Shown here: positions 3,801 to 4,988 of the stretch, piece after piece | Numbering within the stretch: position 1 is the first letter of the stretch | How the letters are laid out: each line of letters starts with the position of its first letter | From: Vulcanisaeta sp. AZ3 | GTDB taxonomy: Archaea; Thermoproteota; Thermoprotei; Thermoproteales; Thermocladiaceae | DNA length: 28,532 bases | NCBI GenBank assembly: GCA_000960865.2 | Contig: JZWU02000022.1 | Span: 1 to 28,532 of the forward strand | Direction of reading: 5' to 3' | Made by a program: the position numbers and the translations under genes | The notes under the pieces: model-generated | What the model was told of the DNA's origin: nothing | The model's database searches: none | What the model saw: only the letters and a program-made list of their open reading frames with translations

Positions 3801-3849
3801 TTGACAAAGAATCGGCAAGCCTCGCCCTTTAGGGCGGGGAGGGGGTCAG
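3801..3849 (+). mobile_element. Solo IS200/IS605-type terminal hairpin (miniature element or scar)
   Basis: AAGCCTCGCCCTTTAGGGCGGGGAGGGGGTCAG is a hairpin plus TCAG end of the kind found at crenarchaeal IS605-type right ends, preceded by TTGAC. No tnpA or tnpB nearby. Confidence 0.7.
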
Positions 3850-3880
3850 TTAATGGTTCGTAGAGTGAATTATTGAAGGA

Positions 3881-3956
3881 GGGATGTTCGGAAATCCCCG
3901 CGGTTCGTCTACCGACTTCATTGGCGACCAATCGGTCGTCTCAGTGGTCTTCCCGC
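3881..3956 (-). ncRNA. K-turn hairpin small RNA, probable non-canonical H/ACA-like pseudouridylation guide
   Basis: GC-rich island folding GCGG/CCGC, internal loop, ACCACU/AGUCGGU, CUGA...AAUGA K-turn, CGACC-GAUU-GGUCG. A second hairpin GGGAU/AUCCC follows. BRE-TATA 27 nt upstream. Confidence 0.7.
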
Positions 3957-3975
3957 AATTTTTATTCTCCCTAAT

Positions 3976-3990
3976 TATTTAAATCTTTGC
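3976..3990 (-). promoter_or_regulatory. BRE-TATA promoter of the putative sRNA
   Basis: GCAAAGA-TTTAAATA on - strand, first T 27 nt upstream of G3956, with no ORF start at that distance. Confidence 0.65.
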
Positions 3991-4064: not shown

Positions 4065-4988
4065 GTGTTGGTATTTGCAGGGAGTGATAGGCGTGTTAAT
4101 GCTTTTCTTAGTGTGCGTGATTTTGTTTTTGGTTCGTGGCCAACGCCTTTGGTGAGGCTTGAGCGCTTTGGTGATGTTTGGGTTAAGTTGGAGTTCTTTA
4201 ATCCTCTTAGTAGGAGTATTAAGGATAGGACTGTCCTATTCCTATTACGTAAGTTTCTTAATGATGGTATTAGTGGTAGGCTTGTTGAGGAGGCTTCCTC
4301 AGGTAATGTTGCTCTGGCCCTCGCGTCCCTAGCTAATATTTATGGTTTTAGGTATAGGGCGTATGTCACGAGGCATTTACCGAGGATTACGGAGGTGTTG
4401 TTGAGGGTTCTTGGGGCTGAGGTTGTTAGGGTTGATAGGGATGGGATTGATGAGGATTTTTGGCGTTGGGTTGGGGAGGTGGCTTCTAGGGATGGTGCCA
4501 TAAACCTAAATCAGTTTGAGAATTTTGATAATCCCGAGGGGCATTATGTCGTGACTGGTGGTGAGGTTGTGGAGCAGTTTAGGAGTGTTGGTAGGAGGCC
4601 TAGGGTTTTGATTGCTGGTGTTGGTACTGGTGGGCATATAACTGGTATTGCTAGGAGGCTTAGGGATGAGTTTGGGGATGTGTATGTGATTGGTGTTCAA
4701 CCCGCCAGTGGGAGTGCCGTACCGGGTCTTAAGCGTGTTGAGGCTGGGACTAGGTGGGTTCGTGAGGTTGTTAATGAGTTCGTTGATGTGGGGTTGGAGG
4801 AAGCTGTTGATGGTGTGGTTAGGGTTGCTAGGAGTGAGGGGTTGCTTATTGGGCTTAGTAGTGGTGCTGTTTTTAAGGCGTTTCTTAAGGTTAGGGAGAG
4901 GTTTGGTGATGTTACTTACCTCCTTATTTTTCCTGATGATATTTATAAGTACGTAGATATTATTGGTCGTTTCGTGAATTCTACGTAA
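4065..4988 (+). CDS. PLP-dependent cysteine synthase family protein (O-acetylserine/O-phosphoserine sulfhydrylase)
   Basis: 'PTPLVRL...KLEFFNPLSRSIKDR' (PLP Lys), ASSGN, NQFEN, GVGTGGH, GLSSGA, IFPD. Confidence 0.9.
   Translation: MLVFAGSDRRVNAFLSVRDFVFGSWPTPLVRLERFGDVWVKLEFFNPLSRSIKDRTVLFLLRKFLNDGISGRLVEEASSGNVALALASLANIYGFRYRAYVTRHLPRITEVLLRVLGAEVVRVDRDGIDEDFWRWVGEVASRDGAINLNQFENFDNPEGHYVVTGGEVVEQFRSVGRRPRVLIAGVGTGGHITGIARRLRDEFGDVYVIGVQPASGSAVPGLKRVEAGTRWVREVVNEFVDVGLEEAVDGVVRVARSEGLLIGLSSGAVFKAFLKVRERFGDVTYLLIFPDDIYKYVDIIGRFVNST

What the first reader, a model, noticed from the sequence alone, without database searches (positions are those of the whole stretch)
3881..3990. Unannotated K-turn sRNA that looks like an ACA-less pseudouridylation guide for the 23S peptidyl transferase centre
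Seen: the - strand from G3956 reads GCGGGAAGACCACUGAGACGACCGAUUGGUCGCCAAUGAAGUCGGUAGACGAACCGC, 27 nt downstream of a BRE-TATA. It folds into a basal stem, an internal loop, an upper stem, a C/D-type K-turn (CUGA opposite AAU-GAAG) and a capping hairpin. No ACA box sits at the canonical 14-16 nt spacing. Known: archaeal H/ACA guides are L7Ae-bound K-turn hairpins, and atypical forms are described in Pyrobaculum. Inference: pocket strands GGGAA and GACGA would bind UCGUC-U-C-UUCCC. This resembles the conserved LSU segment GUCG(G/U)CUCUUCC around E. coli U2511, which as I recall corresponds to a pseudouridylated site in yeast. The host rRNA is not in this window, so the target is a prediction.
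Basis: partly seen in the sequence, partly recalled or inferred. Interest (0 to 1): 0.75.

Follow-up and report, generated by a model that had tools for sequence, protein, structure and literature searches.

The report
Conserved ACA-less pseudouridine-guide-like small RNA
This is a real, conserved small RNA of hot-spring archaea, built like the known "atypical H/ACA" pseudouridine guides, and its invariant tail matches ribosomal RNA next to the peptidyl transferase centre, but the target is still only a prediction.

Summary
On the minus strand, 3957-3893 is a K-turn hairpin followed by an invariant 3' tail, N-GACGA-R-CCGCGGGG, and a TATA box lies 26-27 nt upstream.

A covariance model built from three other genera finds one full-length copy in all 31 genomes of the taxonomic family. 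Four related copies occur in a sister genus. 13 of 14 stem pairs show compensatory changes.

No Rfam family reaches its threshold. The nearest are the Pyrobaculum H/ACA-like sRNAs 207 and 209.

The host MAG has no 23S. This places E. coli U2511, which by numbering offset is yeast Psi2880, at the pocket.

The conserved part is the 3' tail. Its second block also matches the helix-89 strand at 2483-2490, which gives a rival target, U2496 (yeast Psi2865 by the same offset).

I read it as a new family of the known atypical H/ACA-like guide class, most likely aimed at U2511. Expression, protein binding and modification are all untested.

The parts
3976..3990 (-). Promoter: purine-rich BRE-like gcaaaga (3990-3984) and TATA-like tttaaata (3983-3976).
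   Evidence: Read. A TATA-like box lies 18-36 nt upstream of the model hit in 31 of 35 homologues by a simple pattern. The other 4 have similar A/T boxes.
3949..3957 (-). Predicted start and 5' leader UGCGGGAAG. (U)GCGG (3957-3953) can pair with CCGC(G) at 3903-3899.
   Evidence: The start is inferred from the TATA spacing and not measured. The pairing appears in the MFE fold. The leader is not conserved among relatives.
3943..3948 (-). 5' strand of the stem between guide and K-turn (ACCACU).
   Evidence: It pairs with 3917-3911, with C3914 bulged (model alignment). The equivalent stems covary across genera: GUCC/GGAC, GGUAGC/GCUACC, CCAGGC/GCCUGG, CACGGC/GCCGUG.
3941..3942 (-). K-turn G-A on the non-bulged strand.
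   Evidence: It lies opposite G3919-A3918. The UGA at 3920-3918 is invariant in the 28-sequence alignment.
3923..3940 (-). K-turn C-stem and apical hairpin, GACGACC-GAUU-GGUCGCC.
   Evidence: All four inner pairs show compensatory changes.
3911..3922 (-). K-turn bulge AAU (3922-3920), sheared G-A (3919-3918), and the 3' strand of the stem AGU(C)GGU (3917-3911).
3910..3910 (-). Spacer N (an A here). In relatives it is G, A, U or C.
   Evidence: Pyrobaculum sR207 also has one spacer nucleotide (U) between stem and guide.
3905..3909 (-). 3' guide block 1, GACGA. It is complementary to 23S UCGUC (E. coli 2506-2510), which lies directly 5' of U2511.
   Evidence: Invariant in all 35 homologues. UCGUCU occurs once in the 6,069-nt rRNA locus of a relative. 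The sister genus has GACGAC, which extends the match to G2505.
3896..3904 (-). 3' tail block 2, A-CCGCGGGG. It is complementary to 23S CCCCGCGG(U) (E. coli 2483-2491, the 3' strand of helix 89). In some lineages it also pairs with the 5' leader.
   Evidence: CCGCGGGG is invariant in all 31 family genomes, and the sister genus has CCGCGGG. CCCCGCGG occurs once in the rRNA locus. The block is shared with the tail of Pyrobaculum sR207.
3875..3895 (-). 3' extension AUUUCCGAACAUCCCUCCUUC, with a displaced ACA (3887-3885) and a weak hairpin (GGGAU 3898-3894 with AUCCC 3885-3881). The 3' end is not determined.
   Evidence: Conserved within the genus only. The hairpin appears in the MFE fold. An ACA or NCA lies 5-8 nt after GGGG in several genera.

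Best explanation
A small RNA of about 65-85 nt is transcribed from its own promoter on the minus strand, starting near 3957/3956. It belongs to the atypical H/ACA-like class of archaeal pseudouridine guides. This class has a single hairpin interrupted by a K-turn (the expected L7Ae site), no ACA box at the canonical distance, and at most a vestigial lower stem.

Inferred mechanism: Cbf5-Nop10-L7Ae assemble on the hairpin, and the single-stranded 3' tail selects the substrate. After one spacer nucleotide, GACGA pairs with 23S UCGUC (E. coli 2506-2510). This leaves U2511 and C2512 unpaired at the foot of the stem, where U2511 would be isomerised. In this genome only, the leader GGGAA adds five pairs on the other side (2513-2517).

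The second invariant block, CCGCGGGG, is inferred to act as an anchor on the helix-89 strand 2483-2490, looping out about 14 nt of rRNA. In lineages that have a matching leader it may also form a vestigial lower stem.

What is shown: the sequence, its conservation, the covariation, the promoter box, the complementarity to relatives' 23S, and the presence of Cbf5, Nop10 and L7Ae genes. What is inferred: transcription, protein binding, and which U, if any, is modified.

My odds are about 0.85 that it is an H/ACA-like guide RNA, and about 0.5 that U2511 is a target given that it is one.
For: (1) Distribution. The 14-mer, allowing one mismatch, is present in 30 of 30 other genomes of the family plus this one. 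Model R1, trained on 12 sequences from three other genera, finds one full-length copy in all 31, including two untrained genera at 30-42 bits.

(2) Structure. 13 of 14 pairs have changes on both sides, 93.6% of cells are paired, 0 of 500 shuffles reach the covariation score, and slid controls score at most 0.12. The unfitted alignment agrees.

(3) Independent gene. A TATA-like box precedes 31 of 35 copies. The flanking genes differ between genera, and within the genus the RNA cassette is inverted in this genome.

(4) Class. The best Rfam matches are the Pyrobaculum H/ACA-like sRNA 209 for the window (18 bits, threshold 42) and sRNA 207 for the sister-genus copy (27.5 bits, threshold 60). sR207 has the same layout: stem, one spacer nucleotide, then G-CCGCGGGG. 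[quoted passage not shown]

(5) Target. UCGUCUCUUCCC is exact in 26 of 29 relatives' 23S and unique in the rRNA locus. The sister genus has GACGAC, which adds a sixth pair to G2505, and carries AUA at positions 16-18 after the stem. Most genera have 9 stacked layers plus the spacer. That fits the 10-layer rule of PMC4652768 (section read) if the duplex starts at GACGA.

(6) Joint match. Both blocks match 23S in the right order, with a U following, in 28 of 20,000 shuffles of the tail (152 of 20,000 without requiring the U). The block definition was post hoc.

(7) Proteins. Nop10, the Cbf5 DKCLD domain and L7Ae-family genes are present in the MAG.

(8) Precedent. Yeast Psi2880 is a conserved PTC pseudouridine and maps to E. 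coli 2511 by the constant offset 369.
Against: - No transcript evidence: no RNA run holds the stretch.
- The host 23S is not in the assembly, so the target sequence comes from relatives.
- The GACGA:UCGUC duplex is only 5 bp. It is worth -6.6 kcal/mol at 37 C and about 0 at 85 C.
- The 5' complementarity is absent in nearly all relatives.
- The 23S segment is invariant across the order, so there is no guide-target covariation to settle the register.
- The best single duplex of the tail with rRNA is the continuous 12-bp pairing with 2483-2494 (-26 kcal/mol), not the U2511 site. Even that duplex is matched by 9 of 100 composition-preserving shuffles.
- The number of stacked layers between K-turn and tail varies from 8 to 10 between genera by my reading, which weakens geometric arguments.
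- A Gar1 Pfam match was not found in the MAG. The MAG is 90% complete, and the same search also missed the Sulfolobus control.
- No pseudouridine at this position is listed among the three 23S sites of S. islandicus.
Confidence: 0.6

Rival explanations
1. Same RNA class, different site. The tail forms one continuous 12-bp helix (CGAACCGCGGGG with 23S CCCCGCGGUUUG, E. coli 2483-2494, including one G-U pair). The first unpaired U downstream, U2496 (yeast Psi2865 by offset), is modified. Alternatively, as proposed for Pyrobaculum sR207, one of U2491-U2493 is modified.
For: - This is the most stable duplex of the tail anywhere in the rRNA locus: -26.0 kcal/mol, or -25.8 against -24.7 for the split pairing.
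- The A/G polymorphism at tail position 6 keeps a pair with U2491, as A-U or G-U.
- The CCGCGGGG block is shared with sR207, whose published targets are two adjacent 23S U's (PMC4652768).
- Yeast Psi2865 is a conserved PTC site.
- In H. volcanii assays the most 5' unpaired U is converted and unusual spacings are tolerated (PMC7075261, abstract).
Against: - It leaves three guide nucleotides (N, G, A) and G2495 unpaired between helix and stem, unlike sR207, where the helix starts right after the single spacer.
- It does not explain why G-A at the start of the tail is invariant in all 35 copies.
- In the sister genus the extra C has to be bulged.
- 9 of 100 shuffled tails find an equally stable duplex.
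Confidence: 0.2
2. The RNP does not modify. It acts as a chaperone or assembly factor that holds the helix-89 strand, and perhaps the start of helix 90, open during 50S maturation. Some eukaryotic H/ACA snoRNAs act in processing rather than modification.
For: - The most conserved feature is an 8-nt block complementary to one strand of helix 89, where no U is correctly placed.
- There is no ACA box at the canonical distance.
- Toffano-Nioche et al. judged the related sR207 pairings 'not expected to be productive'.
Against: - GACGA next to a U, in the sR207-like register, looks like a modification guide.
- ACA-less atypical guides are catalytically active in S. islandicus.
- Nothing here tests chaperone activity.
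Confidence: 0.1
3. A K-turn RNA with another role: a box C/D-type methylation guide, a 5' leader regulating the downstream S17 gene, or an L7Ae-titrating element.
For: - CUGA and UGA motifs form a C/D-like K-turn.
- In this genome the RNA is transcribed towards the S17 gene, 3761-3315.
Against: - The motif order is D-like then C-like within one hairpin. There is no terminal C/D pair and no Rfam C/D match at E up to 10.
- In 8 of 8 same-genus relatives where S17 is adjacent, the RNA is on the opposite strand and points away from S17. In other genera S17 is not adjacent.
- S17 has its own TATA-like box about 26-32 nt before its ATG.
Confidence: 0.05

Closest known systems
Pyrobaculum sRNA 207 (Rfam RF02805, PyrR207; H/ACA-like; Bernick et al. 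2012, discussed in PMC4652768)
   Same: Both are a single K-turn hairpin. Both have one spacer nucleotide after the stem, followed by a 3' tail containing (G)CCGCGGGG, which is complementary to the same 23S helix-89 strand. In both the lower stem is vestigial. True sR207 copies read ...CCCCC-U-GCCGCGGGGUU-C-ACA. The same-genus genome searched (G008) has no separate sR207. The sister-genus genome (G044) has two sub-threshold PyrR207 matches: one is this family's copy and the other is an sR201 copy. This family therefore looks like the sR207 counterpart in these genera.
   Different: - Five to six extra nucleotides (GACGA, or GACGAC) lie between the spacer and the shared block. This moves the nucleotide at the foot of the stem to a different 23S site.
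- There is no ACA at positions 14-16. It reads AUU here, and only the sister genus has AUA.
- Scores are far below the Rfam threshold: 27.5 against 60 for the sister-genus copy, and no PyrR207 match at all for the window at E up to 10.
- I could not read the primary paper. The equivalence of its L2596/L2597 with the U's after CCCCGCGG is my inference from complementarity.
Atypical H/ACA RNAs of Sulfolobus islandicus (sR109, sR136, sR148, sR563; PMC11077068)
   Same: They have a K-turn hairpin without a lower stem or ACA. sR148 uses a single 3' guide, serves two nearby 23S sites, and works with a duplex as short as 6 bp. They are Cbf5-associated and active in vivo and in vitro.
   Different: There is no sequence relationship that I tested. 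Their targets differ: 16S U8, U1009, U747 and U1162, and 23S U2060 and U2066. The RNA here has a two-block tail whose blocks match two separated 23S segments.
Pyrobaculum sRNA 209 (Rfam RF02807, PyrR209)
   Same: It is the best Rfam match for the window itself. The K-turn and apical hairpin align well.
   Different: The score is 18 bits against a threshold of 42, E 0.94. The guide sequences are unrelated. By my reading, the sR209 consensus guides match the 5' end of 16S, and a true sR209-like copy exists elsewhere in a sister-genus genome.
Yeast snR34 and snR46 (H/ACA snoRNAs for 25S Psi2880 and Psi2865)
   Same: The predicted sites, E. coli 2511 and 2496, coincide by numbering offset with these two conserved eukaryotic PTC pseudouridines.
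   Different: They are canonical two-hairpin eukaryotic H/ACA snoRNAs. No sequence was compared. The site equivalence rests on a constant offset of 369, not on an alignment of yeast rRNA.

Membership tests
Canonical archaeal box H/ACA guide RNA | K-turn or K-loop in the upper stem, about 9-10 stacked layers above the pocket. | tested here: met
   Tandem G-A pairs, the AAU bulge and the C-stem are conserved and covarying. By my count there are 8 layers plus a G-A apposition here, and 9 in most genera.
Canonical archaeal box H/ACA guide RNA | Lower stem closing the pseudouridylation pocket. | tested here: not met
   Only 4-5 bp are possible here. A CCGCG/CGCGG pairing exists in most same-genus and sister-genus copies. 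There is none in the short-leader genera, and the pairing is in a different register in another genus.
Canonical archaeal box H/ACA guide RNA | ACA/ANA box 14-16 nt 3' of the pocket top. | tested here: not met
   Positions 16-18 read AUU. ACA is at 23-25 (3887-3885). The sister genus has AUA at 16-18.
Canonical archaeal box H/ACA guide RNA | Bipartite guide flanking an unpaired U-N in a stable RNA. | tested here: inconclusive
   In this genome 5+5 nt match UCGUC-UC-UUCCC of relatives' 23S. The 5' half is not conserved, and the host 23S is missing.
Atypical H/ACA-like sRNA (Pyrobaculum / Sulfolobus type) | Single K-turn hairpin lacking a lower stem and/or ACA, with a conserved single-stranded 3' guide. 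| tested here: met
   The tail N-GACGA-R-CCGCGGGG is invariant next to covarying stems in 35 copies.
Atypical H/ACA-like sRNA (Pyrobaculum / Sulfolobus type) | 3' guide complementary to rRNA or tRNA directly 5' of a U. | tested here: met
   GACGA matches UCGUC, which is followed by U, and this is unique in a relative's rRNA locus. The result is by sequence only and uses relatives' rRNA.
Atypical H/ACA-like sRNA (Pyrobaculum / Sulfolobus type) | Association with Cbf5/Nop10/L7Ae and sRNA-dependent pseudouridine. | not testable with these tools
   The genes for Nop10, Cbf5 and L7Ae are present. Gar1 was not detected. There are no binding or modification data.
Atypical H/ACA-like sRNA (Pyrobaculum / Sulfolobus type) | Expressed as a discrete small RNA. 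| not testable with these tools
   No RNA run holds the stretch. Only promoter boxes are seen.
Rfam PyrR207 / PyrR209 families | Score at or above the family's gathering threshold. | tested here: not met
   The window has no gathering-level hit. PyrR209 scores 18.0 against 42. The sister-genus copy scores 27.5 against 60 for PyrR207 and has no gathering hit.
Box C/D sRNA | Terminal C (RUGAUGA) and D (CUGA) boxes with internal C'/D' boxes and guides upstream of D/D'. | tested here: not met
   CUGA precedes UGA within one hairpin, there are no terminal boxes, and there is no C/D family match at E up to 10.

The most novel reading that the evidence does not exclude
The single 3' tail is a two-block guide that clamps two non-adjacent 23S segments: the helix-89 3' strand (2483-2490) and the start of helix 90 (2506-2510). 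This loops out the roughly 14-nt central-loop strand of the peptidyl transferase centre. The distal block would replace the lost lower stem and ACA as the anchor. The same RNP could serve both U2511 and U2496, the two positions that by numbering offset carry the conserved eukaryotic pseudouridines Psi2880 and Psi2865. That would be an archaeal origin, and a new substrate-holding mode, for PTC pseudouridylation.
Probability: 0.25. Interest if true: 0.6.

Novelty: new member of a known kind. Interest (0 to 1): 0.45.

Why it matters
Pseudouridine guides remain unidentified in most archaeal genomes because atypical forms escape H/ACA search rules.

This work defines a family with a usable covariance model. 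It has one copy per genome in all 31 genomes of one family of the order, plus a variant in a sister genus. It is absent from Rfam 15 at threshold.

It links the Pyrobaculum sR207 type to a form with a longer, two-block tail. It also gives concrete, testable target predictions inside the peptidyl transferase centre, at positions that are pseudouridylated in yeast. If confirmed, it would extend the set of rRNA pseudouridines shared by archaea and eukaryotes. It would also show how a guide can function after losing its lower stem and ACA box.

Tried and rejected
- **Single-sequence folding.** It gave no signal (z -0.69), so I relied on comparison.
- **Rfam at gathering thresholds.** Nothing in the window and nothing for the sister-genus copy.
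- **Host 23S.** Not in the MAG. Only part of 16S is present. I used relatives' 23S instead.
- **Other targets in the host genome.** A search for the complement of the whole tail, with G-U allowed and up to 2 mismatches, found only the gene itself at 0 mismatches. The 24 other places at 2 mismatches were scattered, and I did not follow them up.
- **Pattern hits in the sister family.** I inspected 12 of the tail-pattern hits in the sister family of the order. None is preceded by a K-turn hairpin, so I treat them as chance. The reversed-pattern control is about as frequent in that family.
- **Weak model hits outside the family.** Most are other K-turn hairpins. One, with a similar tail in a different family of the class, lies in a frame that stays open across the fetched 176 nt, and I dropped it. 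Its 23S is the same as the others, so it gave no covariation test.
- **Guide-target covariation.** Impossible, because the 23S segment is invariant in the order.
- **RNAduplex significance.** Weak: 9 of 100 shuffles do as well.
- **Expression.** No RNA holder is listed for the stretch.
- **Literature.** The primary Pyrobaculum paper (PMC3285929) is not held. Supplements are closed, so tables of sRNA targets in PMC4652768 and PMC11077068 that I could not see may bear on whether this site or family was already listed. A full-text search for 'Vulcanisaeta' with 'ACA-like' found 0 papers. That is the only novelty search I ran.
- **Gar1.** Not found by Pfam, but the same search also missed the Sulfolobus control, so this says little.
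Full report
**What is there.** In order it contains:
- a purine-rich stretch and the TATA-like box tttaaata (3983-3976);
- 26-27 nt later, the leader UGCGGGAAG (3957-3949);
- a stem, ACCACU (3948-3943) with AGU(C)GGU (3917-3911);
- a K-turn, made of G3942-A3941 opposite G3919-A3918 with the bulge AAU (3922-3920);
- a capping hairpin, GACGACC-GAUU-GGUCGCC (3940-3923);
- one spacer, A3910;
- the tail GACGAACCGCGGGG (3909-3896);
- a 3' extension, AUUUCCGAACAUCCCUCC.

The region is intergenic. It lies between a ribosomal protein S17 gene (3761-3315, minus strand; Pfam S17, 68 bits) and a PLP-dependent enzyme gene (4065-4988, plus strand; Pfam PALP, 188 bits). Folding this one sequence gives nothing beyond chance (z -0.69). 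Rfam at its curated thresholds finds nothing in the whole window.

**It is a conserved RNA gene.** The window lies in a 1.51-Mb, 90%-complete MAG. Its S17 is 76% identical to that of a contig titled Vulcanisaeta sp..

BLAST of the region found the hairpin and tail in 11 of 12 other genomes of the same genus. An alignment showed that the 3' side is nearly invariant while the 5' leader varies.

The 14-mer tail, allowing one mismatch, is present in 30 of 30 other genomes of the taxonomic family, spread over five genera. In each it sits right after a K-turn hairpin whose stems differ between genera but stay complementary. Examples are GUCC/GGAC, GGUAGC/GCUACC, CCAGGC/GCCUGG and CACGGC/GCCGUG.

On an ordinary MAFFT alignment of 12 sequences from three genera, my structure gives:
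- 95.2% paired cells;
- 9 of 14 pairs changed on both sides;
- a covariation score of 0.606 against 0.243 in shuffles (0 of 500 reach it);
- at most 0.26 when the partners are slid.

A covariance model built from those 12 finds one full-length copy in all 31 genomes of the family. This includes the two genera it was not trained on (30-42 bits). The window's copy scores 38.9 bits at 3957-3893. On the model-fitted alignment of 35 copies (34 distinct), 13 of 14 pairs have double changes and the score is 0.718 against 0.191 (0 of 500). This alignment leans towards the structure by construction.

A TATA-like box lies 18-36 nt upstream of 31 of 35 copies. Flanking genes are shared only within the genus. 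There the cassette points away from S17 in 8 of 8 relatives where S17 is adjacent, but towards S17 in this genome. This argues against a leader or cis-regulatory role.

**What kind of RNA.** With permissive thresholds, the best Rfam match for the window is Pyrobaculum sRNA 209, an H/ACA-like family. It scores 18 bits against a threshold of 42 and aligns through the K-turn and apical hairpin.

Four weaker model hits in a sister genus of the neighbouring family have the same build, with the tail N-GACGAC-GCCGCGGG-AUA and a leader GCCGCGACG. One of them matches Pyrobaculum sRNA 207 at 27.5 bits (threshold 60). The alignment shows an insertion exactly where GACGA sits.

True sR207 copies (85-88 bits) read: stem, U, GCCGCGGGGUU, C, ACA. 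The present family therefore looks like an sR207 relative with five or six extra nucleotides between spacer and shared block, and with the ACA lost. Here positions 16-18 read AUU, and an ACA sits at 23-25.

The class is established:
- Toffano-Nioche et al. describe Pyrobaculum H/ACA-like motifs without a lower stem, with residual pairs and displaced or missing ANA boxes, and a rule of 10 stacked layers between K-turn and pocket (PMC4652768, section read).
- Li et al. showed that such atypical RNAs bind Cbf5 and guide modification in S. islandicus. One of them has a single 3' guide, serves two nearby sites and works with a 6-bp duplex (PMC11077068, sections read).
- In H. volcanii, pairing on the 3' side of the pocket matters more than on the 5' side, and the ACA is dispensable at normal spacing (PMC7075261, abstract and section headings).
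- The MAG encodes Nop10, Cbf5 and L7Ae-family proteins. Gar1 was not detected, but the same search missed the Sulfolobus control.

**The target.** The MAG has no 23S, so I used relatives.

The 23S stretch CCCCGCGGUUUGGUACCCAGACGUCGUCUCUUCCC is identical in 25 of 29 genomes of the order. The exceptions are two copies with homopolymer-type differences, one divergent copy and one U-to-C change.

I numbered it by aligning to an annotated E. coli 23S. That copy is 2,903 nt long and runs one behind standard numbering at the GGAAAGACC landmark. The landmark's standard numbers are from my recall. On that basis CCCCGCGG is 2483-2490 and UCGUC is 2506-2510.

The unpaired U is U2511.

Two papers give yeast/E. 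coli equivalences of 2826/2457, 2870/2501 and 2921/2552, a constant offset of 369. Yeast Psi2880 (snR34) and Psi2865 (snR46) are listed as conserved PTC sites. By that offset they correspond to 2511 and 2496. This is an inference from numbering, not from an alignment.

**Which register.** Two pairings fit.

(A) GACGA pairs with 2506-2510, placing U2511 opposite the spacer. CCGCGGGG is then either idle, paired with the leader, or anchored on 2483-2490.

(B) A continuous 12-bp helix forms with 2483-2494. The first free U is then U2496.

Energies are close: -24.7 kcal/mol for A with the anchor, -25.8 for B, and only -6.6 for the 5-bp helix alone.

I favour A for four reasons:
- sR207 starts its helix right after one spacer nucleotide.
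- Most genera have 9 layers plus the spacer, which fits the 10-layer rule.
- The sister genus has GACGAC, which adds a pair with G2505 under A but must be bulged under B. It also keeps AUA at the canonical distance together with a 5-bp lower stem, so it looks like a near-canonical pocket whose 3' strand is GACGAC.
- Only A explains why the first G-A of the tail never varies.

Both blocks matching 23S in the right order with a following U is rare among shuffled tails: 28 of 20,000. I defined that test after seeing the data.

Against A:
- The helix is short.
- The 5' guide GGGAA that makes a neat 5+5 pocket exists only in this genome. One relative has GGAA.
- The layer counts vary between 8 and 10.
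- The rRNA is invariant, so there is no covariation test.
- The best single duplex is B, although 9 of 100 shuffles equal it.

The invariance of CCGCGGGG in lineages whose leaders are too short to pair with it needs a reason beyond a lower stem. An anchor on helix 89 is the simplest one I can offer.

This is a new family of a known class, close to Pyrobaculum sR207. Nothing about expression, protein binding or modification has been tested. I could not see the primary Pyrobaculum paper or any supplements, which may already list related RNAs or this site.

Noticed in passing
window 3815-3854 (either strand), between the sRNA and the S17 promoter: A short GC hairpin element. The minus strand reads CTGACCCCCTCCCCGCCCTAAAGGGCGAGGCTTGCC. 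There is one full copy in this MAG, but many near-identical copies (87-100% over 30-50 nt) in many genomes of both families of the order (30 copies printed). On the plus strand it matches the 3' half of the Rfam family HgcC at 25.1 bits (threshold 50, E 0.001), including the motif after the hairpin. What it is remains unexplained.
   Followed up: partly
window 3893-3957 versus loci L150-L160: The sRNA cassette is inverted in this genome. In 8 of 8 same-genus relatives where S17 is adjacent, it points away from S17 and towards the PLP-enzyme gene. Here it points towards S17. This genome's copy is also the most divergent in the genus, with different stems and a different leader.
   Followed up: partly
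5' leaders of homologues: Many leaders are complementary to the invariant tail, but in different registers. CCGCG pairs with CGCGG in most same-genus and sister-genus copies. CGGCUCGU pairs with ACGAGCCG in another genus. Because CCGCGG is a palindrome, the common leader CCGCGAC is also complementary to the other strand of 23S helix 89 (GUCGCGG, E. coli 2459-2465), just 3' of U2457-C2458.
   Followed up: no
G000 contig C29 (L001, L002): The only rRNA found in the MAG is a partial 16S (model positions 4-828, plus a 28-nt piece) at a contig end. No 23S was found.
   Followed up: no
L134 (a genome of another genus in the family): Its 23S fragment differs strongly from all others in the otherwise invariant PTC stretch (GUCGGCUUUUCCC, 85% identity). 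It may be a foreign or contaminant rRNA fragment.
   Followed up: no
L173 (a sister-genus genome): A clear sR209-like RNA scoring 35.8 bits, just under the Rfam threshold of 42. Its 5' guide GGCAGGAUC and 3' guide CCGG fit, by my recall of the conserved archaeal 16S 5' end (no call checked it), a U near position 8. That would parallel S. islandicus sR109.
   Followed up: no
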